Source of the DNA: Naegleria gruberi
Lineage: Eukaryota
Reading direction: 5' to 3' (one strand)
Assembly: GCA_000004985.1 (NCBI GenBank)
Contig: GG738864.1
Length of the DNA stretch: 64,000 bases
Part shown: in pieces, positions 28,091-58,800 of the stretch
Position numbering within the stretch: the stretch's first letter is position 1
Layout of the letters: each line of letters starts with the position of its first letter
The notes under the pieces: model-generated
The model's database searches: none
The model's input: the letters and a program-made list of their open reading frames with translations, nothing else
What the model was told of the DNA's origin: nothing
Made by a program: the position numbers and the translations under genes

Positions 28091-31000
28091 ATGACTTCAC
28101 GAGTGTATCCTCAAACACAAAACACAACAAGAGCTGCTACAGGAAGTGTAGTGCTTAACGACGCTGAAAGTTCCTCTCAATTTGGTGCAGGAACTTCTGC
28201 CACTTCAAGCACATATGCTTCTTCATTGGGTGGGAAAAGTGTTGTAAACAATGCTGGAATAAGTATATTCTCATTGATAACAACTCTCAGACCTAAAGAT
28301 ACACTAGTTGGTAACGAGAATACTTACATGTTGCTTGGAATGGTATTCTATCACATTTACTTGATATACAACTCTGTAATACTCTCATCAATTTCAACAC
28401 CAATGATTAGAGATGGCGATTCTACATTGTGGGGAGTTATACCTGGTTGGATATGGAGAGCTTTGTATTTTCCAATTAATTTGGCATCTGAATTCTATCC
28501 ATACTTTTTAATTATTGCACTATCAATACTATTTGTAGTTATACAAGTATGTACTTGTTTTGGAATTTATTATTGCAAGTGGGCTGCAAGAAAGGGAGGA
28601 AAATTGTTTGAAAAGATCAAGACATTTCTATTGAATTCTTTGATATTCCAAAGAACTTTCACTTTATTCATCTTGTCCATTCATGCAATTTTGTTATCTC
28701 CAAACACCAAGAATGGTACTTTATATTACTTTCCAAGTCAATCTTTCAGCTCAGTGATACAAATAGTTTGTGCAGTAATAGGATGTGTTGGAATATTGTT
28801 GAATATAGGTTTGACGGCCATTGCAACACTATTAACTGGCGAAACAAGCCCTCAGTTGGGTCGAAGAATTTGGTTTTCATTGTACTCTATTTCACCATTT
28901 ATGTTCTTTGATTTTGTTAATCAACTAAGTTTAATTTCAACTATTATTTGTGCAGAACCCTATACTTATATTGCTTCTATTATGAAAGTTGTAATGAATT
29001 TATTACTACTAGTAGTAACCGTGAAATCCTTGCCATTCTTTAGAAAATGGGAGAATTGCTTCTATTTAGCATTGATTAGTTTGAAAGTTTTTACTCCAAT
29101 ACCACCATTAATTTTGCCATTTCTTTCTTCTAATCAATTAAATCAACAAGAGATTGGTGGTATCGTGACAGGTGTTACTTTTGCAACTGCTGTCATTTCT
29201 TTTGTATCTGGATTCATTATTTCTTACATTTGGTTAGCATTTAAAATGAAATCAATCAGAAACATACTATCCAATAAGGAAGACAGCTCAGCAACATTGC
29301 TTCTTCTTGAGAAATCAAAAAAGAAACAAGAGAACCTTTCACTATTCATAAGATTTGCAAACAATAGTTCTCCAGCAATGAAATCGAGGGAAGGAAGTGA
29401 TTTTGACTTGGCCAAACATGCTGTCAACACACTTGTCAAACCAATTGAAAATGTTGAACTATTAATTATCAGTTCCTTATTTGTTTCTTTTGGTGGAATT
29501 CTAGATTATGATTATTCCCAATCATTTAGTATTGGATTGGCTCTATTACAAAAAGCTCAACGAATTTCACCTTCGCTATCTCAGATGTTCAATATCATGT
29601 TAAGAAATGAAGAAGTTGAGTTTCATGCCTTTCATGGAAATAATCTTGAAGTTTTGAGAAAACTTGTAATGGTTGAAAAGAAAGTGAAATCATTGTCTAG
29701 ATGTCACAAGTCATTCTTTAAAGAATTATTGAATGACAAACCATCTATTGGTAAATTAGAACATATTAATAGTACCATTTGTTCGATTTATAATGAATGT
29801 GATACAATTTATGATAATTTACTAGTTTCTAATAGATCCAACAAGACACTACTCAGATCATATGCCTCCTATTTGGAAAAATACAAGTGGGAAATCAATT
29901 TAGCAAAACAATTATTTGAAGAAGCCCAAGACAATGATGAAGATAAGAATAAGCAACAGTTTAAGGCACCAGAATCTTCGTTCCATAAAGGAAACACATC
30001 TAGATTTAGTATAGATTCACAAAGAGCTAATATGGATGGTTGGGATTCTGTCAGTGTTGCTGGTGCAGACGAAAACGATGAAGATAGAAAAGATCATGTT
30101 TTGAGAATGGCAATCAACTCTCCCATGTCAACTGTTGCTTATTCCACATTATTTTTCCTTTTCTGTACCCTCTCTGTACTAACTATTTGTATCGTAGCAC
30201 CAGTTTCACTTGTATTTACTCAGAGTATCAATGAGAGAATGACAATGCAAGAGCAGGTTTGCTTAATGACCTCAGTTCCATACAAATTATTAACTCAGGT
30301 TCTAGCGCTTCAAGCAGAATATAGTTTGAGAGGAAATAATACTGAGAAATTACTTAATTCTACCATTGATTATACCAATAACTTGTTGGATACTGTAAAA
30401 ACAGTAGTAACAGCAGGAGACAATAACATGTTAATGCCAGAAGTTGCAAGAGAATATTTGAAAAATCAATATGAACTTAAACTTCCAATTACTAATGATT
30501 CATTAATTGGAAATGAAATACCAGGATATACAATCACTAATACCTCTATTCAATTCTACTTATCTTCCGTGTACACCCATGGAAAGACCTTGCTACAAGA
30601 ATTTAATGATATGGACCAACTGGTTTCGAATACCGATGAGAATTATGCTTTGTTATTTATATTCTACAATAGAATTCCAATGACTCAAGCTTTCAATAGT
30701 TTGTGTTCTAAATTTGTAGAAGAAAGTGTAGCTTCAATTGAAACGAATTTCGAACAATTGTGGATAGTTACAGTTTCTGTTCTTGTTACTTATTTGAGTA
30801 TTTCACTAATTTTCTTTGCAGTAATATTCACACACTCTAGAAGACTTGTTGTTGAGCTTAAAGAAATATTCAGAAGAATAACAAAAGATGAAATAGGAAA
30901 AGTTTATCACAGTTTTGAAAAGAAAATAGACGATTCTATTAGCTCTTCAAATAACCTTTTGAAAATGAGCAATATCCTAATGTTTGGAAGTTTCCTCTTT

Positions 31001-32923
31001 GTAATCGTCATTTGTTTATGTTCCCTACTAGTTGTAGTCGAGCTCAACAGCAATACCAAACAAAGTGCTCGAACCATGAATGTTGTTGGTTCTATTAATG
31101 CAGTTTCGCTTAGAACTTCAAGAACCAACTTTAGATTAATCTGGTTTATTGAAAGGATAAAGTATCTAACAATGGATCCTTTATCTGTTAACCAGGAAAA
31201 TAAGCAAGACTTGCTTGATTTGAGAACATATTGGAATTATGTTGTGGTGGGTGATGAATCAACTTCTTACACCTCTGCCGTGTTTGGAAAATATGAAGAT
31301 GTCGATTATCTATTATCCGATCTTTGTAATGATACTGTTTCAATGGCTGATCCTTGTCATAGTTTAACTGTTGCATTGACTGATTACATTACAAAAGCTC
31401 TAGATTATAATGAAGTATTCTATTACCAAAAAAAGAGTAAGACGTTTATTCAAAATGCATATTTTGCAAAAGTATTCTATGTCACACAGACAGTTACTTA
31501 CAATTTACAAACTTTAATCTCTGCTCTTGTAACTCATGAAAAGGTTTCAAATATTGGGTTAACAGCTAGTATGATTGGTTTGTGTTTCGTTTCTACAATT
31601 TTATATGCTGCCATTTGTTATTCATCCTTGAATAGGTATTGGAAGGAAAGAGCTTGTTTGAGAATGATGTTGAATTATATCAATATAGATCTAATTGAAA
31701 GTAATTTGATATTGAGAGAGTATGTCATGTCAAATGTTGTTCCTTCAAAGATTTCCTCTAAAATAGTGCCATCCTTTGAAACTGAGCAAGAAAAGGATGA
31801 CAAGATTGAAATGGTAAAGACAGTATTGAATGGAGGTGTTGATTCTGCAATTATTTGTGATAAGGATGGAAATATTACAATTTTCAATAATTCTGCTGAG
31901 GAAATGTTCGGCTATTCCAGATCACAAGTTTTAGGGTTACCAATTCAAACCCTATTTACCTCTGAATATTCTGAGAGACTCATGAAATTGATTTCAACTG
32001 GTGAATTACAGGATTCATTCGAGGCAATGGCTCAGAGACGAAACAAGACTAATTTCTCTTCAAAAGTTTCAGTTTCCGTTTCAGTGCATGGCAAGAAACA
32101 AATTTTTATTGTCTTTGTTCGTGATATTTCACCAGAAAAGAAACATAGCTTGCTAATTGCTGAGGAAAAGAAGAAGAGTGAAGATTTATTATTGAATATT
32201 TTGCCCGTGTCAATGGCATCAAAATTGAAGAACGGCGAAGAGAATTTATATGAGAAAGTGAATGATATTACTGTTTTCTTTAGTGATATGGTTGGGTTTA
32301 CTGCATGGAGTTCGAAATTGCAACCTAGTGAACTCGTTCAAATCCTGAACTCTATTGTTCATGGATTTGACAAGTTGACTGAAATTCACTTTATCGACAA
32401 GATTAAAACTATTGGAGATGCTTATTTTTGTGTAAGTGGATTACACTCCTGTAAATCATCCGATCATCCAGAAAGAATGTTAAAATTTGCCATTGAAATC
32501 ATGTCCTTTTTAAAGAGTATCAACACATCAAGTCAAACATTAATTAATTTGAGAATTGGTATTCACACAGGTGATGCTGTTGGCGGAGTTATTGGGTTTA
32601 AAAAGTTTGCCTACGATCTGTGGGGAGATACCATCAACACTGCCTCTCGTATGGAATCAACATCACTTCCAGGGAGAATTCAAATTTCCAGATCTAGCTA
32701 TGGAAGAGTTTATGACCTATTCGAATTTGAAGAAAGATTAATTGAGGTGAAAGGAAAAGGACAATGTCAAACCTATCTACTAAAAGATAAACACCATGAG
32801 AATCCAATATCCATGGATCCTGAGATGTTACACGTGGAAGATAATGATCAATTGGAAGTTTCACAAGGACCATTTTGTTCCAGTGATAAAGAGAGCCAGC
32901 AACAAGAGGAATTAAAACAGTAA
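28091..32923 (+). CDS. Polytopic membrane PAS-domain class III nucleotidyl cyclase, adenylyl-cyclase type (1610 aa, intronless)
   Basis: ATG at 28091. The N-terminal block has about 8-10 TM helices (28300-29250). A large loop region is bracketed by further TM helices (about 30130, 30770, 30970 and 31560). A PAS fold lies at about 31800-32145 (VLNGGVDSAIICDKDGNITIFNNSAEEMFGYS...). One class-III cyclase catalytic domain lies at about 32240-32790. It carries both metal-binding Asp residues (FFSDMVGF, IGDAYF), Lys and Asp at the substrate-specifying positions (KIKTIGDAY, FAYDLWG), and the transition-state Asn/Arg (TINTASRME). Confidence 0.8.
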   Translation: MTSRVYPQTQNTTRAATGSVVLNDAESSSQFGAGTSATSSTYASSLGGKSVVNNAGISIFSLITTLRPKDTLVGNENTYMLLGMVFYHIYLIYNSVILSSISTPMIRDGDSTLWGVIPGWIWRALYFPINLASEFYPYFLIIALSILFVVIQVCTCFGIYYCKWAARKGGKLFEKIKTFLLNSLIFQRTFTLFILSIHAILLSPNTKNGTLYYFPSQSFSSVIQIVCAVIGCVGILLNIGLTAIATLLTGETSPQLGRRIWFSLYSISPFMFFDFVNQLSLISTIICAEPYTYIASIMKVVMNLLLLVVTVKSLPFFRKWENCFYLALISLKVFTPIPPLILPFLSSNQLNQQEIGGIVTGVTFATAVISFVSGFIISYIWLAFKMKSIRNILSNKEDSSATLLLLEKSKKKQENLSLFIRFANNSSPAMKSREGSDFDLAKHAVNTLVKPIENVELLIISSLFVSFGGILDYDYSQSFSIGLALLQKAQRISPSLSQMFNIMLRNEEVEFHAFHGNNLEVLRKLVMVEKKVKSLSRCHKSFFKELLNDKPSIGKLEHINSTICSIYNECDTIYDNLLVSNRSNKTLLRSYASYLEKYKWEINLAKQLFEEAQDNDEDKNKQQFKAPESSFHKGNTSRFSIDSQRANMDGWDSVSVAGADENDEDRKDHVLRMAINSPMSTVAYSTLFFLFCTLSVLTICIVAPVSLVFTQSINERMTMQEQVCLMTSVPYKLLTQVLALQAEYSLRGNNTEKLLNSTIDYTNNLLDTVKTVVTAGDNNMLMPEVAREYLKNQYELKLPITNDSLIGNEIPGYTITNTSIQFYLSSVYTHGKTLLQEFNDMDQLVSNTDENYALLFIFYNRIPMTQAFNSLCSKFVEESVASIETNFEQLWIVTVSVLVTYLSISLIFFAVIFTHSRRLVVELKEIFRRITKDEIGKVYHSFEKKIDDSISSSNNLLKMSNILMFGSFLFVIVICLCSLLVVVELNSNTKQSARTMNVVGSINAVSLRTSRTNFRLIWFIERIKYLTMDPLSVNQENKQDLLDLRTYWNYVVVGDESTSYTSAVFGKYEDVDYLLSDLCNDTVSMADPCHSLTVALTDYITKALDYNEVFYYQKKSKTFIQNAYFAKVFYVTQTVTYNLQTLISALVTHEKVSNIGLTASMIGLCFVSTILYAAICYSSLNRYWKERACLRMMLNYINIDLIESNLILREYVMSNVVPSKISSKIVPSFETEQEKDDKIEMVKTVLNGGVDSAIICDKDGNITIFNNSAEEMFGYSRSQVLGLPIQTLFTSEYSERLMKLISTGELQDSFEAMAQRRNKTNFSSKVSVSVSVHGKKQIFIVFVRDISPEKKHSLLIAEEKKKSEDLLLNILPVSMASKLKNGEENLYEKVNDITVFFSDMVGFTAWSSKLQPSELVQILNSIVHGFDKLTEIHFIDKIKTIGDAYFCVSGLHSCKSSDHPERMLKFAIEIMSFLKSINTSSQTLINLRIGIHTGDAVGGVIGFKKFAYDLWGDTINTASRMESTSLPGRIQISRSSYGRVYDLFEFEERLIEVKGKGQCQTYLLKDKHHENPISMDPEMLHVEDNDQLEVSQGPFCSSDKESQQQEELKQ

Positions 32924-38441: not shown

Positions 38442-40655
38442 ATGCCTTTTCGTTCAAAGAATGTGTTTTTATTGGTGTTTCTGATCATGCTGAGTTGGTA
38501 CCTTCTAGTTGATACATCATTAGGCTCATCCGATTATAATATTAGTTATATAGATTGGAAAACATTGAAGAAAATTGATAGCAGTACTTTATCATCTTCA
38601 TCAATAATAGCAGCCGATAATTTTACGTCATTATTTGTATGGAATGATTTATTTCGGATGGTGCTGCAAAACAATACATTTGATACTATTGGATTGGAAT
38701 GGCTATTTAATTATGATGCCGAATTGAAATTCTTTACATTTGATACTACTCTGACTGTAGAAGTGATGAAGCAAATGATGGAGTTTATTGGAAGGGATGT
38801 AATGAGGAATTCATTCTATTCTCTACCTAAATTGTGGAAATTCAAGCAAATTCTAATGAATAAGAATACAGAATGTATCTATGGGAGTGTTTTTGAAGTA
38901 TTTGACATCATGATTGGAACTAATATTGAATTTGTTGAGAGGATACGGCTGAATAGAAATCATAGACAATTTAAGAAGAAATCTAGTGATTATCTCAACC
39001 CATCTGACTTTTATTCGATACCTCTATTTCCCAATAACTTTTGGATGTTGAATAGTCTAAATGGATTCAATAGCCAATACTATGAATCGATTGTTCAAAA
39101 ATTAGCAGAATCCCTTGCACTCAAATCATCATTCCAAAACTATACATCTTGCACTGATTCCTTAAAACATGATTCGATAGTATTGGAAAGACTTCATGGT
39201 GTAATGAATTTTACATCTACTCAACTAGAATGGTCTCTCAAATTCTCAAATATTTCCTCATCATCAGTTCCTCAAAATTTTACATTTTTACAACAAGCTA
39301 TGGAAGTATTTTACCAAAACAACCAGGATTATTTATTTTGGAACCAATCAAAAGTTCAACAATACTTGTGGACCTCATCATGTTTTCAATGCTCATCAGC
39401 AAATTGTGTTTCAGAGAGATGGGCTTGGGTTGACACTTTGGACATAACAGTTGTCTGTATGGCAGTACTGTACTACTTGGTTTTATTTGCAAGTGGAGCC
39501 TTTAGATCGCCTGTAATTTACAGAAAGTATCCTATTGTATTCTTTTGCCCTTTTATTGTAATGGGAATGTATTCTTCAATGGTGAACTCTTTCAATAATG
39601 GATGCATATCAGTTGGAGTTATTTTTACAGTCTACCTGGCAGCCTTACTGAATGTAATTTACATTTGTACCGTTGTTAGATACTACTATTTGAGAAACCT
39701 TTACAATATTATCAAGAATTCAAAACATCCAAAACTTTTCAAATATCTGTCTAGTGAGCTGGTTGGATTCGTATTCACTGTAATTTTCCCCATTCCAACA
39801 GCCTTTGTAGCCACTATTCCAATTTTCATTATAGTTCAAACCTATAATTCTCTGATAGTCAACACAACTAATAATGTGATTATAGTTTTATTTTGTGCCA
39901 TTTCATGCTTCGCTGGTGTATCCTTCTTTATTTATGAGGCTATTAGAAATAGAAAACTGATTGCCAAGTTTGGTTTGGGTAGATTCTTATTATTTGAAGA
40001 ACCTTATTACTTTAGAATTGATCTACTCGCACTAGGTTTGATGATATTATTGCTGATTTTATTGGCAATATTGTTTCTCGTTTTGCCAAACTCGATTGTG
40101 GCCATTCGCTTTGTTATTGGACTCACATTGTACATGTTAACTGGTGGAACATCTTTACTAATGCTATTTATTGAAAATGTAAGAAATGGAAATGTTGTCA
40201 AGCAAATCTCGTCTGAAACAAAACATTCCAATGCGGAATATATTGAAATAATCAAGAATAACAGTAATAAGGATTTGGTAGAACTTTTTAGGTTATATTC
40301 TGAAAAATCTCTTGCCTTGGAAAATATTTTACTCATGGATGAATTGGTTGGATTTAAGAGAAGATCAGAGAATATCAAAATTGAAGATTTGAAAAAAGTT
40401 CATGAAATGTATCTGACTGCTTACTCTGCTTATGAAGTCAATGTATCTTCAATAGCCAAATCAACTTTTGAAAAGGATTTGAGAGATGCAGAGGCTATTC
40501 AATCCCTCAAAGTTAGAAATGAGGTAGTGGATCAAATCATGAAGGAAGTGGAAATGAATCTAATATCAACATTTTCCAGATTCACAAGAACTAACGAGTT
40601 TAGACAATGGAGGGAAATTTACCAATTGCAAAAGGATCGAGTAGCTGTTATATAG
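38442..40655 (+). CDS. Seven-transmembrane receptor with a C-terminal RGS domain (7TM-RGS) and a large N-terminal ectodomain (737 aa)
   Basis: Signal peptide MPFRSKNVFLLVFLIMLSWYLLV. Ectodomain of about 310 aa with several Cys and N-glycosylation sequons. Seven hydrophobic helices between about 39440 and 40200. The C-terminal region ...FRLYSEKSLALENILLMDELVGFKRRSE...VHEMYLTAYSAYEVNVSSIAKSTFEKDL matches the RGS-domain signature (S-x-E-N-hhF...YL...S...VNh). Confidence 0.65.
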   Translation: MPFRSKNVFLLVFLIMLSWYLLVDTSLGSSDYNISYIDWKTLKKIDSSTLSSSSIIAADNFTSLFVWNDLFRMVLQNNTFDTIGLEWLFNYDAELKFFTFDTTLTVEVMKQMMEFIGRDVMRNSFYSLPKLWKFKQILMNKNTECIYGSVFEVFDIMIGTNIEFVERIRLNRNHRQFKKKSSDYLNPSDFYSIPLFPNNFWMLNSLNGFNSQYYESIVQKLAESLALKSSFQNYTSCTDSLKHDSIVLERLHGVMNFTSTQLEWSLKFSNISSSSVPQNFTFLQQAMEVFYQNNQDYLFWNQSKVQQYLWTSSCFQCSSANCVSERWAWVDTLDITVVCMAVLYYLVLFASGAFRSPVIYRKYPIVFFCPFIVMGMYSSMVNSFNNGCISVGVIFTVYLAALLNVIYICTVVRYYYLRNLYNIIKNSKHPKLFKYLSSELVGFVFTVIFPIPTAFVATIPIFIIVQTYNSLIVNTTNNVIIVLFCAISCFAGVSFFIYEAIRNRKLIAKFGLGRFLLFEEPYYFRIDLLALGLMILLLILLAILFLVLPNSIVAIRFVIGLTLYMLTGGTSLLMLFIENVRNGNVVKQISSETKHSNAEYIEIIKNNSNKDLVELFRLYSEKSLALENILLMDELVGFKRRSENIKIEDLKKVHEMYLTAYSAYEVNVSSIAKSTFEKDLRDAEAIQSLKVRNEVVDQIMKEVEMNLISTFSRFTRTNEFRQWREIYQLQKDRVAVI

Positions 40656-42345: not shown

Positions 42346-44247
42346 ATGATGAAGCAAATTAGTGGTAAATCACTGATTGCGCTCCTTCTTGTTTTCATCC
42401 TCACGATGGTAGCTACTACCGCCGTGGTTGAAACAAGGGAACAATCAATCGAGTCAGAGGTGGCTCGTCTTGTCCAATTGAAGGCTAAACTTCGTGAAAA
42501 GTGGAATCCTAATGCCTATTTATCTGAACGTATTTTAAAGATTGCTAAAAAGTTTTCAATTTCAATTCCACGTCGTTGTAAGAGAAGAATTTCTGAGGAA
42601 ACTATTGAAATTATTAGAAGATTGGCTGAATGTCCAAAGAATACTAAACCTTCTGAACCAACTAAACCAACCAAACCAACTGAGCCAAGTAAACCAACTG
42701 AACCATCAAAGCCAACTGAGCCAACTACTCCAACTGAACCAACTAAACCTGGTAAGGAATGTCCAGCTTTGAAGTGTAAGAGAGTTTGTGGAACTCGTGG
42801 ATATAAGAAAAATTCAAGAGGATGTGATACTTGTAAGTGTAACAAGAAGCCAACTAAACCAACCAAGCCAGGAAAGGGTTGTCCACACGTTTCTTGTCCA
42901 AAATCATGTCAATCTGGATCTAGTATTGGTATTGATCAAAAGACTGGATGTTTGGCTTGTACTTGTAAACCAACCAAGCCAACTGAGCCAACCACTCCAA
43001 GTGAACCAACTAAACCAACTACTCCAACTCAACCTGAAACACCAACTACTCCAACTGAGCCAACTCAACCTGAAAAGCCTACTGTTCCAGTAACTCCAAC
43101 TGAACCAACTCAACCTACTGAACCAAGTAAGCCAACTGAGCCAACCACTCCAACTACTCCAACTGAGCCAACTCAACCAACTACTCCAACTGTTCCAACC
43201 AAGCCAACTAGACCAACCAGACCAACCAGACCAAGAAGACCAACTAGACCTAGAAGACCAACTAGACCAAGAAGACCAACTAGACCAACCAAGCCAACAA
43301 GACCTGGTCGTCCAACTAGACCTTCTCGTCCAAGCAGACCATCTAGACCAAGCCGTCCAAGTAGACCATCTAGACCTTCCAGACCAAGCAGACCAACTCG
43401 TCCATCTAGACCTTCTAGACCTTCTAGACCAAGTAGACCATCTAGACCATCCACACCAAGTCGTCCATCTAGACCAAGCAGACCATCCAGACCTAGTCCA
43501 TCAAGACCAGGTAGATCTTCACCAGGTAGAGGTGGTGGTGGTGGAAGAGGAGGTAGAGGTAGAGGAGATCCTCATTTCACTACAATTGTTGGACATCAAG
43601 ATGTATTATTCAACGGAATTGGTGACTTTATTCTTGCTGAGACAGTTGACAAGGAATTCGTTGCCCACGTTCGTATTGCCAAATGGAATGGTGACAAGGG
43701 AGATGCTACTGTCAACGTTGCTGCTGCTGTTAAGGCCGGTTCTGATACTATTGAATTCGATAGCAAGTCAAAGAAGTTTTATTTGAATAAGAAGCGTGCC
43801 ATTTTCGCCATTGGTAGAAAGTATGAATTGGATGGTGGTTACTTGTTGAGAAAGACTGAAAAGTCATTCATTGTCAAGTCTAACGATGGAGCTGAATTCT
43901 TCGGTGAATACTTTGTTTTGCACGATGGTAGAAGTTATATGGATGTTTCAGTTGATGCTCCAAAGGATGTTGAATTCGAAAGAGGATTAATTGTTAACGG
44001 AAAGGACTCTGGTGTTGCTGAAGGATTATTCAGAAACCACAAGCAAAGAAAGGTCTTGCCAAAGGCCAAGCTCAATATTCCAAAATGGGCTTTGGATGCT
44101 TGTGCCAAGAAGGGTGTCACTGGAAGACGTTTGAAGGACTGTGCCTATGACATTACTGTCACTGGTAAGGAATTCGCCAAGGAAATTGCCAAGGATGAAG
44201 CCAAGTTCAATAAGAGAGCCGATAAGGTTGTCAAAAAGAACAAATAA
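42346..44247 (+). CDS. Secreted Pro/Thr-repeat protein with two 6-Cys modules, a basic P-[ST]-R-P repeat tract and a C-terminal GDPH (VWD-like) domain (633 aa)
   Basis: Signal peptide, then an amphipathic helix. PTKPTEPSKPTEP-type linker repeats. Cys modules CPALKCKRVCGTRGYKKNSRGCDTCKC and CPHVSCPKSCQSGSSIGIDQKTGCLACTC. A (PTRPRR)n / (PSRPSR)n tract and a Gly/Arg run. The C-terminal domain begins RGDPHFTTIVGHQDVLFNGIGDFIL..., which resembles the start of von Willebrand D / RGM-type domains that carry an acid-labile Asp-Pro bond. Confidence 0.7.
   Translation: MMKQISGKSLIALLLVFILTMVATTAVVETREQSIESEVARLVQLKAKLREKWNPNAYLSERILKIAKKFSISIPRRCKRRISEETIEIIRRLAECPKNTKPSEPTKPTKPTEPSKPTEPSKPTEPTTPTEPTKPGKECPALKCKRVCGTRGYKKNSRGCDTCKCNKKPTKPTKPGKGCPHVSCPKSCQSGSSIGIDQKTGCLACTCKPTKPTEPTTPSEPTKPTTPTQPETPTTPTEPTQPEKPTVPVTPTEPTQPTEPSKPTEPTTPTTPTEPTQPTTPTVPTKPTRPTRPTRPRRPTRPRRPTRPRRPTRPTKPTRPGRPTRPSRPSRPSRPSRPSRPSRPSRPSRPTRPSRPSRPSRPSRPSRPSTPSRPSRPSRPSRPSPSRPGRSSPGRGGGGGRGGRGRGDPHFTTIVGHQDVLFNGIGDFILAETVDKEFVAHVRIAKWNGDKGDATVNVAAAVKAGSDTIEFDSKSKKFYLNKKRAIFAIGRKYELDGGYLLRKTEKSFIVKSNDGAEFFGEYFVLHDGRSYMDVSVDAPKDVEFERGLIVNGKDSGVAEGLFRNHKQRKVLPKAKLNIPKWALDACAKKGVTGRRLKDCAYDITVTGKEFAKEIAKDEAKFNKRADKVVKKNK
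42640..43500 (+). repeat. Imperfect tandem repeats of 9 and 18 bp encoding PT(K/E)P and P(S/T)RP units within the CDS
   Basis: Runs of ccaactaaacca / ccaactgagcca units, then agaccaactagaccaagaaga and agaccatctagaccaagc units. The matching repetitive ORFs on other frames and strands in the track (42516-43454) are artefacts of this repeat. Confidence 0.8.
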
Positions 44248-47223: not shown

Positions 47224-47620
47224 GTTTGATAGTGACGTGTGTTAAATATTTTTTTTTGTTATTTTTTTCTTTGATGGGTGTCAAGTTTGATGATTGATGA
47301 AGACTTGTTATCGATCCTTAACAAATCACTTTCTTTTTTGTTTCTTTCAATAATAAGGTTTTTAATGTTTCTCTTAATCTTCAGAGCTCTTAATAGAATT
47401 ATAAGATCATCCTGGTTCAATTCGAATATGAATATTAAATCATGTAAAATTGACATCAAATTCACTAATAGAACCAATCAATACACCCTCTGCTATCCAC
47501 ATTATAATACTTTAATCTCAATTATTCTAATTTCCTTCCCAAATCACCAAAACCAACCTCTTTTCACATTTCTTAATTTTCTTGGATTCTCAAAATTTTT
47601 CTGAACCATCCGAAAAAAAA

Positions 47621-48667
47621 ATGTCATCATCAAGTGAATCGTCATCCAATATTCCACCAACCAATCAGCAAAAGATTGAAATTATTAGGAAGTCCATTGA
47701 ATTGTTTCAACATGATAAAATTCTTGATGCCTACGATTTGTTGAAGAAACAATATTCCATCACTGAAAATTCCATTTCTTCTCTACTTGAGAGCAGGGAA
47801 TCATCTTCCGATATTGATGAACAGGAAGAACAGAATGAAACTCTTAGCAAGGAGGAAGCAGAATTGGTCAAGCTAATATACAAGGATGGAGCTCTGGCGA
47901 AAATGTTACTTTCTGAATTTTCCAGTAGTGCTGGATGGAATACTTGTGTTGATAAGGATGATTGTAAAACATTCTACAAGCAAACGTGTAAAATTGATGG
48001 AGGAAAGGGAGGATCGGAGGCAGAGCCATCATTGCATGCCATTAAAATTGAGGGAATTATAGAGACACCTGTTTTTAACTTGATGTCTATATTGTATGAG
48101 GTTGATTTGTATAAGAATTGGGTTCCTCAATTGGGTGAATGTGGAGTAATCAAATATTTGGGTGGAAATGGAACATCGAGATTTAGATTTCTTTCGTATT
48201 TTAGTTTTAATTTGCCATGGCCAATGTCTTCAAGGGATTCATTGACCTATGCTTTTGTGGTGGATCGTTCTGATTATGAACAGGATCCCTCGATATTGGT
48301 TGTAATTAGAGGAGCTGATACGCACAAGGATTCTTCACTTGCTGATCTTATTTCAAAACATGATAATCAAACACATGTGAGAGTGGGAATTGAGTATGCA
48401 GGATTTTTAATTAAAATGTTATCAGAAGATACCTGCCATGTTTCACTCATTGCTAATGTAGATCCAAAACTGAGCTATATTCCAATTTGGTTTCAAAATT
48501 GGTTGACCAATAATTTGAGCTATTTAATGATTTCAAAATTGAGACAAGCTGCTGAAAAAGTTCCAAACTCTGAATACAGTGTCAGAATTAAGAATAACGA
48601 TCAGGTTTATGGTGAAATTACGAGAAGACTTTCAAAATTCCTAGTCACCCACAATTTAAAAAAGTAA
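47621..48667 (+). CDS. START-domain (StAR-related lipid-transfer) protein
   Basis: The track start at 47582 is TTG. The first ATG is at 47621. A central segment with ...NLPWPMSSRDSLTYAFVVD... is characteristic of START/Bet v1-fold lipid-binding domains. Confidence 0.55.
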   Translation: MSSSSESSSNIPPTNQQKIEIIRKSIELFQHDKILDAYDLLKKQYSITENSISSLLESRESSSDIDEQEEQNETLSKEEAELVKLIYKDGALAKMLLSEFSSSAGWNTCVDKDDCKTFYKQTCKIDGGKGGSEAEPSLHAIKIEGIIETPVFNLMSILYEVDLYKNWVPQLGECGVIKYLGGNGTSRFRFLSYFSFNLPWPMSSRDSLTYAFVVDRSDYEQDPSILVVIRGADTHKDSSLADLISKHDNQTHVRVGIEYAGFLIKMLSEDTCHVSLIANVDPKLSYIPIWFQNWLTNNLSYLMISKLRQAAEKVPNSEYSVRIKNNDQVYGEITRRLSKFLVTHNLKK

Positions 48668-49835: not shown

Positions 49836-52800
49836 ATGCTCTCCGATCAAGATTATCAGAAACATAAGAGGAGGAAGGAAGAAGAGGAAAAGAAGAGAAA
49901 GGAAAGAGAGGATGAATCTTCTTTGCCTTCATCATCATCTAATTCCACTCCTCAACAATATGAACATCAAACTCTGAATAATAATATTGTGATAATAGAT
50001 GGTGATGACACTGATAGTAATGATGCTGTTATTATCACCTCTCCAACAATTCAAGAACAACAAACAGCTAAATTTGGTTTTCTAGTCAATAGTCAAGAAG
50101 ACAACAATAATTCATCATCATCACCACATGTTACAGGTAGTAGCAATAAGAAACGAAAGACTACCAGTCACTCTCCTTTAACAACAAATATTTCTCCTAT
50201 TAAACAAGAAGAAGACATGTCTTCTACTGTTCCACCCAATCAACAAGAACAAACAGCCAACAATAACATGGTGATGATGGATAACAACAATAGCAATGAA
50301 AAGCCTTCTACACCCAAACAAGGCACAACAACAACAAATTCCGATGAAGATGATGTTATAATGATTGAGAGTAATGAAGCAACACTTTCACCTTCCTTGT
50401 TACACAAGATGCAAGGTTCTCTAAAGATTGAAGAATCACAACAACAGGAACAAACTAACACTAGTGCAAGTACTACTACCATTCCATCATCATCGGAATT
50501 ATCAGATAATAATGATACATCATCAAAACCTTCGGAAGAGAATGATCAACAACAACAACAAGAAGGCACCAACAATAATAATACGGTTCTTCTCAATTCT
50601 GTCAAGACAATAACTGAAAACACTGGTGTGAGAATAGTGGTGCATGCCTTCATTCCTCCACAGTACACTGATGATCTACAACCAGCCTTGAGGTACAGTT
50701 ATAAGGAAATTACAGGTTCGGGGAAAAACAAGAAGGAAGAAGTTAAAAAGGTAGACATTCCACTGGGTCACACTCCTGTTGAGGGTCTGGATATTTGGTT
50801 TTGTGTTGTGAAATTGCCACTTCAAGTTGATTTCGTGAGCTTTAAGATTATTGTTAGAGATGAGAGTAAGGCAATTCATACTGATAAAGAGGTTAGATCG
50901 ATAACACTTCCAAAATATACCACTCCAGCTGTTCATCACATCTATATTAACTTTAATCCAAAATCAGAAAAGAGACAGGGAATTTTGGACATGTTCAAAA
51001 CCAAACTTTCAATGACTGAAACCTTTTTAACAGAGTTATTTACTCCTTCCAAGATTGATACTGGTGATTTATTGCCATCTGATACTGAGAATAATGTTTT
51101 TGAGAATTTAATTAGAATTAACAGAAAACGAATTCAAATATTTCATTCAAGATTGGATGGGTTTATGCAAAGTATGGCTCATCTCAGTGATTTGAATTTT
51201 TACACTAAAATACACATCAAACAAAATTATACCAGCACCAACAGACACAATTTAAAGTCACCATATGTGTATGAGGATACCAAAAAGTTTCTCCTTTCTT
51301 TACCAGAAAAGATCATTCAGGATAAGACTGATTTCGAATTGAAATTGATAATGACCCTTGTATTCTTTGAAAAGATTTATTCCATCTCTGGTCACAATGA
51401 TAAGAAGAACTTTGATGAAATGATTGATCTTTTGAAAGAATTGGATGTGTATACACTCAATACTATATTTCATCACATTTTGAAAAAGGAAGCAGAAAAA
51501 TCTACACCAATCAACTTGATTAGAGATTCATTCAGAAATTCCATTCAAGCTCTGATAAATGTCTTTTCGGCCACCACAAATGACAAGAGAAAGTTTAGCT
51601 ATTGGATTATGGCTGCTCCATTCATTAGTCTTGAATTGAAGTTTCACGGTAGCACCAGTCCACTGGATATGCTGATAATGCAATCTGATAAGAAGAGGTT
51701 CGATACAGAATTTGCCACCTTGACTTCAATAGTTGAAGAGAAAAGAGCACTCATTTCGAATAGATCTCATGTCGTGTCTGGTACAGATATTGGTATTATA
51801 TTCTCAACAATTTTTAAAATGGCCTCCTCTCTTAATGATATCAATTGTATTCTAACATTAACATCAGATATGCAATCGAATGAAGGAAGGTTCAGATCTT
51901 TCACCACTCAACTATGTGAATTCATTTCTAATATGGATTCTTGGGAAGATAGTGATTTTGATTCCTTTACATATTTATTGGAAAATCATTCATACGTTCT
52001 TTCTAGCACATCTATGTTGGCAAGTTATTTCAAGAATAAGGCTCTCAGTGAAGTTAGCCACTACCACTCTGAGAATATTTTGAAGCATTTACTCATGTTC
52101 CTTGAAAATGAAGAATTCGTTGCTAATAACAAAGAAAAGGATCTCATTTCCCTGTCAAAACTCATAGCCAACTTCTTTTCTACATTGTTTGGAAAGAAAA
52201 AGTCAAGTTACAACCTCTTTAAAAAGAGTGTCTATTCAATGAAAGATATAGTTGCCTTTTATTCTAAACTTGCAGAATCCTTATCAAAAACTTGTATGAA
52301 TGACTATCAACTTATTATCATTGAATCCATTTCCAATAACTCTTCCTTCACTTCCAGCGGTTCAGACCCGTATTCAAGGATTACATCTCTTATAGAAATT
52401 TGTGAAGAGTTTGAATTGGATGAAAGGGCAACACTTGGTAATATTCTTGCTCAATTGACTTTGGATACAGTCAAATCATTGGGAGTTAGCAACAAGGTAA
52501 TCAACAAACTCTTGGATACTGTCTCAAGGTTCTATGCAGACAGTATTGATATTACAATTGATGTTGTTTCCAAGAAAGTTTTAATGTACATAATAGAAAC
52601 ATTGAGTGAGGGATCATCAATGACCATCGAGATATTGTTCAAACATCACTTGTTGTGGAGTCGTTTATTTCAACTCAATGATATTTTCACAGACAAGAAA
52701 TTGATTGAAGGAGTACAGCTAGTGGACAAATTCTCCCAACAAATCAATAACCATACCATCGCCCTAAATGATCTGAGAATTATTTTAAGAGATGACAATC

Positions 52801-55800
52801 AAGATAGGTTCGTATCACTGGCAACATATTCCGGTGTCAGTGTTATTTCCAAGAATACTCTGATAGATATTGACTTTCAGGTTCAATACTTTGAAACACT
52901 ACTGAAACAGTGTCACGACTTTTGCAACCATTACTGTCAACATGATAATGTAAATAATGAATTCAGGTTGCTATTGGAAAAGATTGAAGCTGAAATCCAA
53001 AATAATGCCGTATTTAGTAGTATCAATTCAAGCTTCAATAATTTTGCCTTCCTTAAAGAGCTTCCAACCCTTCAACATTTATGTAAATCCGAGCTCTTTT
53101 TACAATTCTGGAACGAAACCATAGATCAAATGGTTGAAAGTCTGGTTACTGAAACTGAATCCACCTCAAAGATAATATTCACAATTAATGATTTGAAATC
53201 CCGAGTCTATCCACAAGTAGTTCAAAAATGGCTCCAGTTGTACAATAATCTGAACATGAAAACTATTTCATTTTTAGAACTTCAAACATTATTCAGTGAT
53301 AATACTGAGGAGGAGACGTTCCAAGATATGCTCTTCCTCAAAAGAACTTGTCAATCAACTGATAACATGCTTGATGGAGATGCCACTCAATTCCACCTTA
53401 TCAATGAAAACAATCAAAGTTATATTCAATGGTCAAGAGAACACGCCCAACTCATCTCGAGTTTTTTAACTATAGTCAAACAAAAAGAGTACATACCAAT
53501 GATAGTTTCTATTTTGAGCAAGTTTAACAGTAATTTTTCAACTTCTGTTTTCACAGATTCGTACTATGTTAAGATTGAAAAAATTCACAAGTACATTCTT
53601 GAGAAATGGGAATCTGGAAACCTCTTTGATATTGTTGACATGGTCAATGAAGCCAAATCGGCATTGCAACATTTGGGAAAGAACGAATTACTATTGATTG
53701 AATTTTTGAATGAATCTGATGATTTATTGAATTGGTTATGGCAACACAATGATTCCAGTCAATTCAATGAATTGATCAGAGTTTGCAGAGAAGTTACTGA
53801 TGATGCTATCATATTGCAGTCATTTGCTTCTCTTACAAGTGCCAGAGAATATTTGTACGAGTTGGTTTATCCATCAAGAAAGTTTACCAGTTGTGAATCC
53901 TTTTTGAGGGCAATCAACACAGCCAACTTGAACAAGGATGATACAGAAATTCAAAGGAGATTGACAGACTGTAAAGTTATTAGATCAAACTTGGAGAATG
54001 TCAAACAAGTATTTAAAGAAAAGACGAGAAGCCCCTCTGTGACTGCTGTTTTAAAGCTTTTAGAAATTATAAGTGGTGCGACCATATCTGTAACAACAAT
54101 TAATTCTATCTCAGAGGATAATTATATTATATGTAATGTAAAAGGCAAGATCACACACTTGAGTGATTTGATTGATATTAGAACAACAGTGTTAAATACC
54201 ACCATTCCAAACGAACTGAAGGAGAAACATATTAACTTGGATGCTGCTATCGATACATTCTGTAAATTAGTTAACATTCTCTCATCAATGAAGAGAACTT
54301 TAATAGAATTAGGCATCAATGGTAGTATGATAGTTGATAATTACGAGTTTACCATCACTCTGAATGTTGATAATTTAGAATATTTATTATTCCAATTTAT
54401 GGAGGAAGAAAAGAGACTGTCAGAAATGAATTCCAACTGGAAGTTAACGATCAAGAATATTAGATTGGAATATAATTTACTGAATTACTTCAATATGCGA
54501 GAGTTGAGAAAACTCATAAAATGGCTCGATATGATAAAGGAAGGAAATTCTATAGTTGGAGAAAGAGTATATTCCATGCTCAAGATTATTGATAATAATC
54601 TCACTCTTCAACAGTACAAATCATTTGAGAAGGAATGGATCGATTACGATATTATGGTGGATGATGATATTCAATTGATATCACTTGGTTCATGTCTGAA
54701 TTCACATTTCAATCTGATTGAGGATAGTCACGAACAAATCGATTTCCTGCCAAGTTCCGATTTGGGCATGTCTACAATGAATGTAGAGAAAAATAACAGC
54801 AAGCAAAACCTTATCGTCATTGCATGCCAAAATGATCAAGAGGTTGAATCTATTGTTTATTCTTTGTATGCTGTTAAATCCATTCTACCACAAGTTGAAG
54901 AAGTACTCATGTGCAGACCAAATACAGACTTTGAAGATATTGAATTGGTTGTAAGAAGATGGTCAAAATCGGAACACAAAAAGCAAATATTTACATTGGC
55001 TAACATTCAACATTTGGACTATACTTTACAATGTAAAGTAGTGGACATGCTTAAAAATTATTTACAAACAAGTACAACATTAGCAACCTTAGCTATTGTT
55101 TCAAGTACTCAACAACAGAGAATTATCAATGCCTTCTCTAACTTTAGATTTGATGGGTCTCCACTTTCTTCTGAGGACTTGAAAGACTCTCTTCTTCAAA
55201 TTGCCAAACCTGGAAAGTTTTCTTCAGGTGTTAATGTTTACACTAGCCCTATGGCAGGTTGTGGTAAAAGTCACACAATATTTGAACGTTCTCACATTGA
55301 GAAAAAGAAGCTAGTCTACATTTCTCTAAGAGAGTCAGTTAACATTACAGAATTAATTAATCAATTGAATGAGAAAACTAGGAATAGCCAACCTGTAACT
55401 TTGCACTTTAACATTGCTCCAAATGTGGATACCATTGTTAATTCAATACTTTTCGAATTGATTGTAATAGGTTCACTCAGAGATCACCAATGCAACGTTT
55501 ACCACAGAAGGCCAATAGATTCTATTGCAATAGAAATACCAAACCAAGTTGGAAATAGAACTCTTGTACGTTCTGTTCCATTCTGTAAATATCTACCAAG
55601 AGTAGAATGTATTGTTTCGGCTCATACACTCTCCATCGAAAGGAAATACGAAATTGGTACTAATGGTAGTGTGATGGTCTCAAACAATAGAAAGCTAAAA
55701 TATGTTTGCTCATTATTATTGGCTCATCAAAATGGCGTCTTTGTCAATAATAACGGAACCGATTTCGTTAACTTTACACCTAACATGGACAATATGAACA

Positions 55801-58800
55801 AGGAGGAATGTTTAACCATTCTCACAAGATATTGCAATGCTGGAGGTCAGATATCGTATGCTCTTATTAATAATTTCGTAGAGTTTACTTTTGAATTCTT
55901 TGAAAATATGATGGATTATGAGGTTTTAAGATTTTTACCATCTCTAGATCCTGGATTTGCAACTTTACCTCAATCTATTGTAGGAATGATTTTGGAAATG
56001 TCAAAAGACTTTGCTATTAGACAATTGGTGTTCAATTTTAATACTGACAATCCTTCTTTGGAGGAATATTCTAACAGATTCTCAAGTATTAGAAAGTGGG
56101 AAGAATCAAGTCACCCAGTCATTATTTTCACCAAAGAAACTTTCCAATGTAATGGTTTCAACGTCATTTCCTTGGATCAATCTTCAGTTAATAGATTCTT
56201 CCCAGAACATTTGAGAGCTCTCCTCCATGAACAAGGAATTAATATCAACTTTGACTTTAAGAAAACAGTAGAGGAAAAGGGTCAAAGAGCAGCAGAACTA
56301 GAAGGACTCAAATTCTTGCAAATGATATCTGGAAGTTTTTCTCTTGATGAAGAGATGGGTGAAATCATGAAAATAATGCTAATTTCAAAGCTAGATGAAA
56401 CAGATTATGTTCTCACACAAGACAACTTGATGAAAATGATTGCCATTATTTACAGATTCAAATCCAATCTCCCTGTCATTTTACATGGTGAATCAGGTGG
56501 TGGAAAGACTTATTTGATTAGTCATTTATGCAAATTTTTAGATTATCAATTATATAGAATGACACTTCATGGTGGTAATACTGAACAGGATATTTTCAAT
56601 TTTTTGAATAATATTGTTATTGAAGCCAATAGTCATGCTATGGCAACATATGTTGCGTTCATTGATGAGTGCAACACATGTTCAGCAATGGCAATTGTTA
56701 AGGAAGTTGTATGTGATGGACTTTTGAATGGTGTGAAAATACCTGAGAATGTGAAAATTGTTGCAGCTTTGAACCCATACAGATTGAAGAACGAGAAGGC
56801 AAAGCAATTGGAGCAATCTATTCAATCTCAAACAGGAATCATCTACAAGCATCCTTCATTTGCCAACATTCCTGATCCATTGGAAAATCTTGTTTATAGA
56901 GTTCATCCACTTCCAGATAGTTTTGTTGATCACTTGTATGATTTTGGTTCTCTTTCTGATGGTGTTGAAAGATTATATATTGGAAGTATGCTAAGACAAT
57001 CTCTAAAGAAGTATTTGAAGGCAGACGAGAATGGAAAAATAACAAATGAAACTGTTCGCCAAGCTGTCAACTTCTTTGAAAGTCTTATTCATGCCTCTCA
57101 AGTTTTTATTAGACAAACAATGCACGAAGAAAGTTCTGTCAGTTTGAGAGATGTGAGAAGATGTATACAAGTATTTTATTGGTTAGTAGAAGAGTATCAC
57201 AATCCTACTTCTGTCTTTAGAGATGTACTCAACTTGGATCACCATCACGGTAATGAAATATTCAATACTCACAACAAACACTTTAAAAACTATGTCATGT
57301 TGTCTCTTAGTTTTGCCTTTTACAGTAGATTGAACAGACAAGAGAGAAGTGGCTATTTGAGATACCTCTCAAAAGAATGTCCAACCATTGTTCCATCAGA
57401 ATTTGAAAAATTACTCACCAAATATCAAACAAAACTTACAGAACAGATGAATATCAGTGAAGGTATTGCCCTCAACGAAGCCCTCACAGAAAACATCTTT
57501 GTCTTGTTCCTTGCTCTTGTTAATCACATTCCTCTTTTAATTCAAGGATATCCAGGAACATGTAAGAGTTTGGCAGTTGATTTAATCAGTAAATCTATGA
57601 GAGGTAAAGCATCTAACAACAAACAGTTGCAACACTTGCCAGATATTAACATATTTGCATTCCAATGCTCACCTTTATCAGAAGCTAAAAGTATAGCCCA
57701 AACATTTAGAGCAGCAAGACAATACGCAAAAGAAAGTTCTGGATCTTCTTCATTATCAGTAGTTCTTTTAGATGAAATAGGTTTGGCAGCTGACAGTCCA
57801 AAGTTACCTCTCAAGATTCTTCACCAAGAATTAGAAAATACTGCAGAAATCAGTGTAGTATCCATCAGTAACTATTCTCTAGATAGCTCCAAGATGAACA
57901 GAATGTGTGTACTTTACAGATCTACTCCCTCTGCAAAGGATCTCAAGGATACTGCTAAAGGTATCATGAGATTCCACAAAAGCTTTAAATTACAAAGTTA
58001 TTTGGAACCTATTGCTACCAGCTATTTGGAACTTTACAAGAATCAAAGAATTAAGCAATTCTTTGGTTTACGTGACTTTTATAATTTGGTTAAATTCCTT
58101 TATAGAATTATCAATAACAAGATGACATACCACGGAAGACCTATTGAATTTGAAAAATCATTGGTCTTATCAGTTCTGAGAAATTTCGGAGGTATTCCAA
58201 GTGAAGACATGGATAATGTTCTTAAGATTTTTGAAAGAAACACAGGTATCAAATTTACAGAATATGAAAAGCCAAATAGTTGTAACCTTTTGAGGTTGAA
58301 TTTGAAGGACAGTGCTGATGCAAGACATTTACTTGTGCTAACGAACAACAATTCAGCATTGAATCTGTTATTTGACTATGAAATACTTTCTCTTTCTAGT
58401 ACTATTGTATTATTTGGAAGTGATTTTCCAGATGAAAAGAATGATAACTTTAGTCTTTCACTTCAATTACAAAAAATCAAACTGGCTATGTCAGAAGGAA
58501 ACACAGTTGTCTTGGTTCATTGTGATTCACTCTATGAAAGTTTGTATGATTTGCTAAACCAGCACTATGTAGTTGTTGAAAATAAGAAATTCTCTAGACT
58601 TGCCTTTGGTAACTCATCTGTTACTTGTCCTGTACATGATAACTTTAGAATTATTATCATTGCTGAAGCTAGTGATGCTTACACCAAGTTGGCCATTCCA
58701 TTCTTGAATAGAATGGAAAAGCATGTGATTCTAAGAGATGACATGATGAACGAAGACAATACCAATTTACATTCCCAATTATCTGCTTTTGTGGAAAAAT

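What the first reader, a model, noticed from the sequence alone, without database searches (positions are those of the whole stretch)
38442..40655. Receptor with a 7TM core fused to an RGS domain and a large N-terminal ectodomain
Seven hydrophobic helices are followed by an RGS-like domain. This is the architecture of plant AtRGS1 and fungal class-VI GPCRs, in which the receptor itself is the GTPase-activating protein for a G-alpha subunit. This protein adds a cleavable signal peptide and an ectodomain of about 310 aa that is Cys- and sequon-rich, which suggests ligand binding outside the cell.
Basis: partly seen in the sequence, partly recalled or inferred. Interest (0 to 1): 0.6.

Follow-up and report, generated by a model that had tools for sequence, protein, structure and literature searches.

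The report
Naegleria 7TM receptor fused to RGS
This is an intact Naegleria gruberi gene for a surface receptor whose seven-helix membrane core carries its own G-protein "off switch" (an RGS domain); that design is already documented in Naegleria and plants, so only its roughly 300-residue outer domain, which matches no known family, is new.

Summary
Window 38442-40655 (+) is one uninterrupted 737-codon ORF, identical to an unnamed Naegleria gruberi "predicted protein". It encodes:
- an N-terminal signal-like hydrophobic segment;
- an ectodomain of about 300 aa;
- seven hydrophobic helices with clean positive-inside topology (N-out, C-in);
- a C-terminal RGS domain.

"Cys-rich" is wrong: Cys is 1.7%, equal to background. 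Sequons are about 2.8-fold enriched.

The architecture is not new. N. fowleri has 28 7TM-RGS proteins, and isolated RGS domains from three of them act as GAPs on Naegleria Gα subunits (Bosch et al. 2022). This protein's 7TM+RGS core is homologous to a GPS/EGF-bearing N. gruberi member.

New here is a subfamily of at least 20 members (Naegleria, Willaertia) that share an unannotated ectodomain. An inferred disulfide links that ectodomain (C145) to the top of TM3 (C388).

Verdict: new member of a known kind, of modest interest.

The parts
38442..40655 (+). Complete single-exon gene, 737 codons plus stop; N. gruberi 'predicted protein'
   Evidence: ORF listing; 100% identity over 100% coverage to P0001
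38442..38525 (+). Signal-peptide-like leader, aa 1-28 (R4 and K6, h-region 8-23, S26-L27-G28 before S29)
   Evidence: Hydropathy peak 2.07 at 8-26. An N-terminal hydrophobic segment is present in 18 of 21 family members. AF2 helix 8-23 has low confidence. Cleavage is inferred, not predicted with a dedicated tool.
38526..39425 (+). Ectodomain, aa 29-328. It has an alpha/beta half (about 34-204) and a helical half (about 211-308). It carries the conserved motif N186-P-S-D189-F190-x-x-x-P-L195-x-P197, the invariant C145, the C237/C314/C317/C322 cluster and 8 sequons.
   Evidence: AF2 secondary structure; invariant columns; sequon and Cys statistics. There is no Pfam match even at E<=5 in 21 members and no PDB sequence match.
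39426..40172 (+). Seven-transmembrane core, aa 329-577. TM1 329-353, TM2 363-381, TM3 388-410 (invariant C388 at its outer end, invariant R413 in 'RYYYLRNLY' just past its inner end), TM4 440-465, TM5 476-497, TM6 527-547, TM7 555-577. ICL3 is highly conserved (N503, G511, F518, D/E520, P521, R525, D527).
40173..40265 (+). Cytoplasmic linker, aa 578-608. It is predicted as a helix continuous with TM7, at low confidence.
   Evidence: AF2 helix 549-606 with pLDDT about 57-59 in 580-600; low conservation of 0.29
40266..40607 (+). RGS domain, aa 609-722. Gα-contact equivalents are E627/N628 (RGS4 E87/N88), N667 (N128) and S709/T710/R713 (D163/S164/R167).
40608..40655 (+). C-terminal helical tail, aa 723-737 (invariant W723, conserved Y727 and Q730), plus the stop codon
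   Evidence: Alignments; AF2 helix 718-736

Best explanation
The gene encodes a plasma-membrane 7TM-RGS protein, a 'receptor GAP', belonging to the lineage-specific 7TM-RGS expansion of Naegleria and Willaertia.

Shown here:
- a leader sequence and a glycosylatable ectodomain of about 300 aa on the outside;
- a GPCR-like seven-helix bundle with N-out, C-in topology;
- a cytoplasmic RGS domain that keeps the residues canonical RGS proteins use to grip the switch regions of Gα in the transition state.

Inferred, by analogy with the N. fowleri 7TM-RGS proteins and with AtRGS1: the RGS domain accelerates GTP hydrolysis on one or more of Naegleria's many Gα subunits, some of which self-activate by fast nucleotide exchange. 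The protein would then hold G signalling off at the membrane. An extracellular cue sensed by the ectodomain and 7TM core would change the availability or activity of the GAP and so de-repress Gα.

The ectodomain is probably tied covalently to the outer end of TM3 by a C145-C388 disulfide. The inner end of TM3 carries the invariant R413, and the cytoplasmic loops are the most conserved part of the protein. This gives a plausible path for transmitting the signal.
For: Family identity:
- The protein is an N. gruberi protein with paralogues.
- An exhaustive profile search found 722 related cluster representatives at E<=1e-3 and 79 at E<=1e-30. About 20-30 of them match across ectodomain, 7TM core and RGS domain.
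- The sources are N. gruberi, N. lovaniensis, Willaertia magna and metagenomes.

RGS domain:
- Pfam gives 22.2 bits for this protein. Members reach 26.7 bits (paralogue P0003) and E 2.2e-8. 18 of 21 members hit RGS.
- In the search of the family profile against PDB, all hits are RGS domains.
- E627, N667, T710 and R713 are invariant in 21 of 21 members, and N628 is present in 20 of 21. They align to RGS4 E87, N128, S164, R167 and N88.

Seven TM helices and topology:
- The inside is conserved and the outside is variable. ICLs score 0.53-0.64 and the RGS domain 0.47, against 0.23-0.27 for ECLs and 0.31-0.34 for the ectodomain.

Link to described proteins:
- The 7TM+RGS core is homologous to the N. 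gruberi GPS/EGF 7TM-RGS protein P0147 (hhalign probability 99.5%, E 5.5e-23, residues 328-727).
- Three of the four isolated RGS domains of N. fowleri 7TM-RGS proteins that were produced act as GAPs on Nf Gα subunits (PMC9283941).
- N. gruberi is reported to have about 44 Gα subunits (PMC8584482).

Disulfide:
- C145 and C388 are invariant. They are the only extracellular Cys in three members.
Against: - No biochemical data exist for this protein or for its subfamily. The tested N. fowleri proteins are much larger (1215-2459 aa) and belong to other ectodomain classes.
- This protein's own Pfam RGS score is below the gathering cut-off.
- The RGS4 D163 equivalent is Ser in this protein and its two closest paralogues, whereas 18 of 21 family members have Asp.
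- The 7TM core matches no Pfam GPCR family. The GPCR fold rests on a predicted model.
- The ectodomain fold and its ligand are unknown.
- Whether any ligand regulates GAP activity is unproven even for the N. fowleri proteins (PMC9283941 discussion).
- The disulfide is inferred from conservation only, because model coordinates could not be inspected.
Confidence: 0.75

Rival explanations
1. The protein is a dual-function receptor. The 7TM core is a true GPCR that activates a Gα by nucleotide exchange when ligand binds, and the attached RGS domain then shuts the same Gα off, giving a self-limiting pulse rather than constitutive repression.
Against: No sequence similarity to any GPCR family with known GEF activity was found. 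GEF activity has not been shown for any 7TM-RGS protein. The conserved loops could equally dock the protein's own RGS domain, kinases or endocytic machinery.
Confidence: 0.12
2. The RGS domain is a non-catalytic scaffold, like the RGS-homology domains of GRKs, axin or sorting nexins. The protein would then be a 7TM receptor or adhesion protein that only recruits Gα or other partners.
Against: The catalytically critical Asn (the RGS4 N128 equivalent, N667) and the E87, S164 and R167 equivalents are invariant across 21 divergent members. That is the conservation pattern expected for a Gα transition-state binder. Related Naegleria 7TM-RGS domains are GAPs that bind through a canonical interface and are sensitive to the switch-1 G-to-S mutation (PMC9283941).
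Confidence: 0.1
3. The ORF is an annotation artefact or a decaying paralogue that produces no functional product.
For: The gene is one of many paralogues, so some may be redundant. No expression data were available here.
Against: The 2.2-kb frame is intact in an AT-rich genome. All family-invariant residues are retained. Two paralogues at 45-48% identity have the same full-length architecture.
Confidence: 0.03

Closest known systems
Naegleria fowleri 7TM RGS proteins (Nf 7TM RGS1-4 and 24 others; Bosch, Jeck & Siderovski 2022, PMC9283941)
   Same: Same genus and the same architecture: extracellular N-terminus, seven TM helices and a C-terminal RGS domain. The 7TM+RGS core of this protein is demonstrably homologous to an N. 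gruberi GPS/EGF-bearing member of that class (hhalign probability 99.5%). The canonical Gα-contact residues are conserved.
   Different: The characterised proteins are 1215-2459 aa. The paper describes their ectodomains as containing EGF-like repeats, lectin or carbohydrate-binding domains and GPS motifs. This one is 737 aa with a different ectodomain that matches no Pfam family, and it lacks a GPS motif. Neither this protein nor its subfamily has been assayed.
Arabidopsis AtRGS1 (plant 7TM-RGS)
   Same: A seven-TM domain is followed by a cytoplasmic RGS domain that acts as a GAP for a self-activating Gα. The receptor-GAP logic is the same (PMC9283941 and PMC8584482).
   Different: By my own recollection AtRGS1 has only a short extracellular N-terminus.
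Fungal class VI GPCRs (RGS-domain receptors) and the 7TM-RGS proteins of Trichomonas, chytrids, filastereans and ichthyosporeans
   Same: The same 7TM-plus-RGS domain order is widespread outside animals (PMC3971589).
   Different: No direct sequence comparison was made. The ectodomain found here was seen only in Naegleria, Willaertia and environmental sequences.
Animal GPR158/mGlyR with RGS7-Gβ5
   Different: In GPR158 the RGS protein is a separate polypeptide recruited non-covalently. Here it is fused in cis. No homology of the ectodomains was shown.
Adhesion GPCRs
   Same: They also combine a large extracellular region with a 7TM core. ADGRF1 and ADGRD1 7TM bundles are among the best structural matches. 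Other Naegleria 7TM-RGS proteins carry GPS motifs.
   Different: This protein has no GPS or GAIN signal. Only about 6 residues separate the last Cys (C322) from TM1, which leaves no room for a tethered-agonist stalk. Adhesion GPCRs have no RGS domain.

Membership tests
7TM-RGS proteins (Naegleria 7TM RGS / AtRGS1 type) | RGS domain (PF00615 or RGS fold) at the C-terminus | tested here: met
7TM-RGS proteins (Naegleria 7TM RGS / AtRGS1 type) | Seven transmembrane helices N-terminal to the RGS domain, with topology that places the RGS domain in the cytoplasm | tested here: met
7TM-RGS proteins (Naegleria 7TM RGS / AtRGS1 type) | Conservation of the Gα-contact and catalytic-assist residues of canonical RGS domains (RGS4 E87, N88, N128, D163, S164, R167) | tested here: met
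Four of the five are invariant and N628 is in 20 of 21 members. The exception is the D163 equivalent, which is Ser709 here and Asp in 18 of 21 members.
7TM-RGS proteins (Naegleria 7TM RGS / AtRGS1 type) | Homology of the 7TM+RGS core to described Naegleria 7TM-RGS proteins | tested here: met
   hhalign of the family profile against P0147 (N. gruberi GPS + EGF + RGS protein, 1513 aa) gives probability 99.5% and E 5.5e-23 over residues 328-727.
7TM-RGS proteins (Naegleria 7TM RGS / AtRGS1 type) | GTPase-accelerating activity on a cognate Gα | not testable with these tools
   This needs biochemistry. It has been shown only for other N. fowleri members (PMC9283941).
7TM-RGS proteins (Naegleria 7TM RGS / AtRGS1 type) | Gα subunits encoded in the same genome | not tested
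   No Gα gene is present among the 28 neighbouring ORFs of the window scanned with Pfam, plus the giant frame at 49836-63998. The literature reports about 44 Gα in N. gruberi (PMC8584482) and a lineage-specific Gα diversification (PMC3971589).
7TM-RGS proteins (Naegleria 7TM RGS / AtRGS1 type) | Sequence homology of the 7TM core to AtRGS1 or to fungal class VI receptors | not tested
The resemblance is architectural only.
Adhesion GPCRs | GAIN domain with a GPS autoproteolysis motif immediately before TM1 | tested here: not met
   There is no PF01825 hit at E<=1 for this protein or at E<=5 in 21 family ectodomains. The same scan does find GPS in paralogue P0147 (1e-7). The juxtamembrane motif here is C-x2-C-x4-C.
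Sequence-defined GPCR families (Pfam 7tm_1/2/3, Dicty_CAR, Frizzled and others) | Significant profile match of the 7TM region | tested here: not met
   No GPCR family appears even at E<=5 in any of the 21 members.
GPCR fold (structural class) | Seven-helix bundle superimposable on solved GPCRs | tested here: met
Class C GPCRs | Venus-flytrap (ANF_receptor / PBP-like) ectodomain | tested here: inconclusive
   No sequence match was found. The predicted ectodomain has an alternating beta/alpha half, but its fold could not be searched on its own.

The most novel reading that the evidence does not exclude
The ectodomain of about 300 aa (an alpha/beta half plus a helical half, with the NPSDF-x-P-x-PL-x-P motif) is a previously undescribed extracellular sensor domain confined to vahlkampfiid amoebae (Naegleria and Willaertia). 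It is tied to the outer end of TM3 by an invariant C145-C388 disulfide, so that ligand binding is passed directly through TM3 to the conserved cytoplasmic face and the fused RGS domain. The paralogues, at least 11 in N. gruberi alone, would then be a diversified chemosensory repertoire that signals by switching a GAP rather than a GEF.
Probability: 0.3. Interest if true: 0.45.

Novelty: new member of a known kind. Interest (0 to 1): 0.3.

Why it matters
7TM-RGS proteins invert the textbook logic of G-protein signalling, because the receptor carries the off-switch rather than the on-switch. Naegleria has one of the largest known repertoires of Gα subunits and of 7TM-RGS proteins, and the genus includes the lethal pathogen N. 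fowleri.

Assigning this unnamed gene and its unannotated paralogues to that system improves annotation. It also defines a compact subfamily of about 740 aa that would be easier to express and study than the 1200-2500-aa members examined so far. The subfamily has a distinct, conserved ectodomain and a testable disulfide link to TM3. It does not change the concept, since the architecture and its likely mechanism are already published.

Tried and rejected
- Word-indexed homology searches with the single protein and with the 5- and 21-member alignments returned only the same five proteins. The two alignment searches added nothing. The exhaustive profile search was what revealed the family.
- AF2 with the 5-sequence alignment gave an unusable model with pLDDT 46. 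The 21-sequence alignment gave pLDDT 76.5.
- A GPS/adhesion-GPCR reading was rejected because there is no GPS signal here, whereas the same scan finds GPS in P0147.
- The 'Cys-rich' description was rejected by comparison with 18 other ORFs of the window.
- tblastn found no tandem paralogue of this protein in the window. No Gα gene was found among the 28 neighbouring ORFs or the giant frame at 49836-63998 that were scanned with Pfam.
- The key comparative papers, Anantharaman 2011 and Bradford 2013, are not held in the library.

Full report
**What is at the coordinates.** Window 38442-40655 (+) is a single 737-codon ORF running from the first ATG after an upstream stop to its own stop codon. 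The window has about 32-35% GC. By my own estimate the chance of 737 consecutive sense codons at this composition is around 1e-25. The translation is 100% identical over its full length to an NCBI/UniRef entry named only 'predicted protein [Naegleria gruberi]'. The organism is therefore N. gruberi and the public gene model is this same intronless ORF. The gene sits in a compact region. A divergent 720-aa ORF ends 297 bp upstream, and a convergent 388-aa ORF has its stop 42 bp downstream. Neither neighbour has an informative Pfam match.

**RGS domain.** For this protein alone, Pfam RGS (PF00615) matches residues 609-722 and covers profile positions 8-116 of 117, with E 2e-4 and 22.2 bits. That is just below the curated 23.9-bit cut-off, so it is borderline by itself. 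Several further results settle it:
- The closest paralogues give the same match, and one passes the cut-off at 26.7 bits.
- Of 21 full-length family members, 15 match RGS at E<=0.01 and 18 at E<=5, with a best E of 2.2e-8.
- A profile of the C-terminal region of five members, searched against all PDB sequences, returns seven hits at E<=0.01. All seven are RGS domains: RGS10, RGS17, EhRGS-RhoGEF and RGS3.
- Foldseek gives probability 1.00 to RGS9, RGS16, RGS8 and RGS4, with TM-scores of 0.7-0.83 normalised to the target.

E627, N667, T710 and R713 are invariant in all 21 members and N628 is present in 20 of them. The D163 position is Asp in 18 members but Ser in this protein and its two closest paralogues. 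This conservation pattern is what a Gα transition-state binder would show.

**Leader and ectodomain.** Residues 1-28 look like a signal peptide. There are basic residues at positions 4 and 6, a hydrophobic core at 8-23, and Ser-Leu-Gly before Ser29. Cleavage is inferred. If the segment were an uncleaved anchor, the orientation of the rest of the protein would not change. The region 29-328 is predicted as an alternating beta/alpha half (strands near 34-38, 53-67, 95-99, 134-138, 156-160 and 190-204) followed by a helical half (211-308). It carries 8 N-x-S/T sequons, 2.7 per 100 aa against 0.97 per 100 aa in 18 other ORFs of the window. All 21 family ectodomains carry 5-11 sequons. Against shuffles of its own composition the excess is only suggestive (p about 0.08). 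It is not Cys-rich, at 1.68% against 1.75%. It matches no Pfam family in any of 21 members at E<=5 and no PDB sequence convincingly. I could not search its fold separately.

**The few cysteines are informative.** C145 in the ectodomain and C388 at the outer end of TM3 are invariant in all 21 members. In three members they are the only cysteines on the extracellular side. The other four (237, 314, 317, 322) are mostly present or absent together, and one member retains only 317 and 322. From this I infer disulfides C145-C388, C237-C314 and C317-C322. The first would tie the ectodomain to TM3 at the position where most GPCRs anchor ECL2. That comparison rests on established knowledge of GPCRs, and the disulfide itself is inference.

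**The family.** An exhaustive profile search of 1.84 billion cluster representatives found 722 proteins at E<=1e-3 and 79 at E<=1e-30. Some 20-30 of them match across ectodomain, 7TM core and RGS domain together. Many longer proteins match only the 7TM+RGS part. Named sources are N. gruberi (at least 11 full-length paralogues), N. lovaniensis and Willaertia magna, plus unnamed metagenome contigs. One longer relative, N. gruberi P0147 (1513 aa), has EGF and GPS motifs followed by RGS. It aligns to this family over all seven helices and the RGS domain with hhalign probability 99.5% and E 5.5e-23. Across the subfamily the cytoplasmic loops are the most conserved parts (mean frequency of the commonest residue 0.53-0.64). 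They include R413 in 'RYYYLRNLY' just inside TM3 and a run of seven near-invariant residues in ICL3. The RGS domain follows at 0.47. The extracellular loops (0.23-0.27) and the ectodomain (0.31-0.34) are the least conserved. This is the pattern of a receptor family with a common intracellular partner and diversified outer surfaces.

**Comparison with what is known.** Bosch, Jeck and Siderovski (2022, PMC9283941) reported 28 seven-TM proteins with C-terminal RGS domains in N. fowleri, several with complex extracellular N-termini (EGF-like repeats, lectin domains, GPS motifs). They showed that isolated RGS domains of three of them accelerate GTP hydrolysis on specific Nf Gα subunits, including self-activating ones. 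Binding was through a canonical interface and selective for the AlF4 state. The proteins they assayed are 1215-2459 aa, so they belong to the large-ectodomain classes and not to the subfamily described here. 7TM-RGS architectures are also known in plants (AtRGS1), Trichomonas, chytrid fungi, filastereans and ichthyosporeans (PMC3971589). N. gruberi is cited as having about 44 Gα subunits (PMC8584482). None of them lies in this window.

**Verdict.** What this analysis adds is:
- the assignment of an unnamed gene to that system;
- the definition of a compact subfamily of about 740 aa with its own unannotated ectodomain;
- the inferred ectodomain-to-TM3 disulfide.

**Mechanism and confidence.**
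- Shown: domain order, topology, RGS fold and contact residues, and homology to the Naegleria 7TM-RGS core.
- Inferred: GAP activity on Gα, surface localisation, leader cleavage, glycosylation, the disulfide map, and regulation by an extracellular ligand.

I put 0.75 on the receptor-GAP model, about 0.12 on a dual GEF-plus-GAP receptor, about 0.10 on a non-catalytic RGS scaffold and about 0.03 on a non-functional gene. Novelty: new member of a known kind. Interest: 0.3.

Noticed in passing
window 49836-63998 (+): One stop-free reading frame of at least 4721 codons runs off the 3' end of the window, so the ORF listing does not list it. Pfam finds dynein-type AAA modules (about aa 2190-2655) and an RZ-type zinc finger (aa 4225-4270, E 3.8e-20). 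That is an RNF213/mysterin-like giant E3 ligase architecture.
   Followed up: partly
window 28091-32923 (+): A 1610-aa ORF carries TmcB-like TPR repeats, a PAS domain and an adenylyl/guanylyl cyclase catalytic domain (E 4e-53). It belongs to the large Naegleria cyclase expansion that the N. fowleri paper discusses as possible G-protein effectors. It lies 5.5 kb upstream of the 7TM-RGS gene.
   Followed up: no
window 42346-44247 (+): A 633-aa ORF sits in a compositionally odd stretch (GC 0.416 against about 0.33 elsewhere, AT skew +0.165). It has no Pfam match and no N-x-S/T sequon at all.
   Followed up: no
window 10224-13532 (-) and 13788-14906 (-): Two adjacent ORFs carry NHL and teneurin-type NHL repeats (1102 and 372 aa). 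They may be one gene split by an intron, or a tandem pair.
   Followed up: no
window 7837-8490 and 8685-10172 (+): The acyl-CoA oxidase N-terminal and middle/C-terminal domains lie in two consecutive ORFs on the same strand. This looks like one gene interrupted by an intron of about 200 bp.
   Followed up: no
window 2-2176 (-): An open frame of 725 codons is cut by the start of the window. It was not identified.
   Followed up: no
window 18850-19689 (+), 19709-20527 (-), 21630-22988 (+), 47582-48667 (+): Ordinary housekeeping neighbours are present: a mitochondrial calcium uniporter, an adaptor-complex medium subunit, a tubulin and a START-domain protein.
   Followed up: no
family members P0153 (N. 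lovaniensis, 1042 aa) and P0067 (N. gruberi, 1371 aa): Some relatives carry several hundred extra N-terminal residues in front of the shared ectodomain. UniRef names P0153 'Big-1 domain-containing'. This suggests that the extracellular region is modular.
   Followed up: no
method note: The word-indexed protein search returned only 5 relatives even with a 21-member alignment, while the exhaustive HMM search found 722. For this low-complexity, AT-rich proteome the word-candidate cap hides most of the family.
   Followed up: yes
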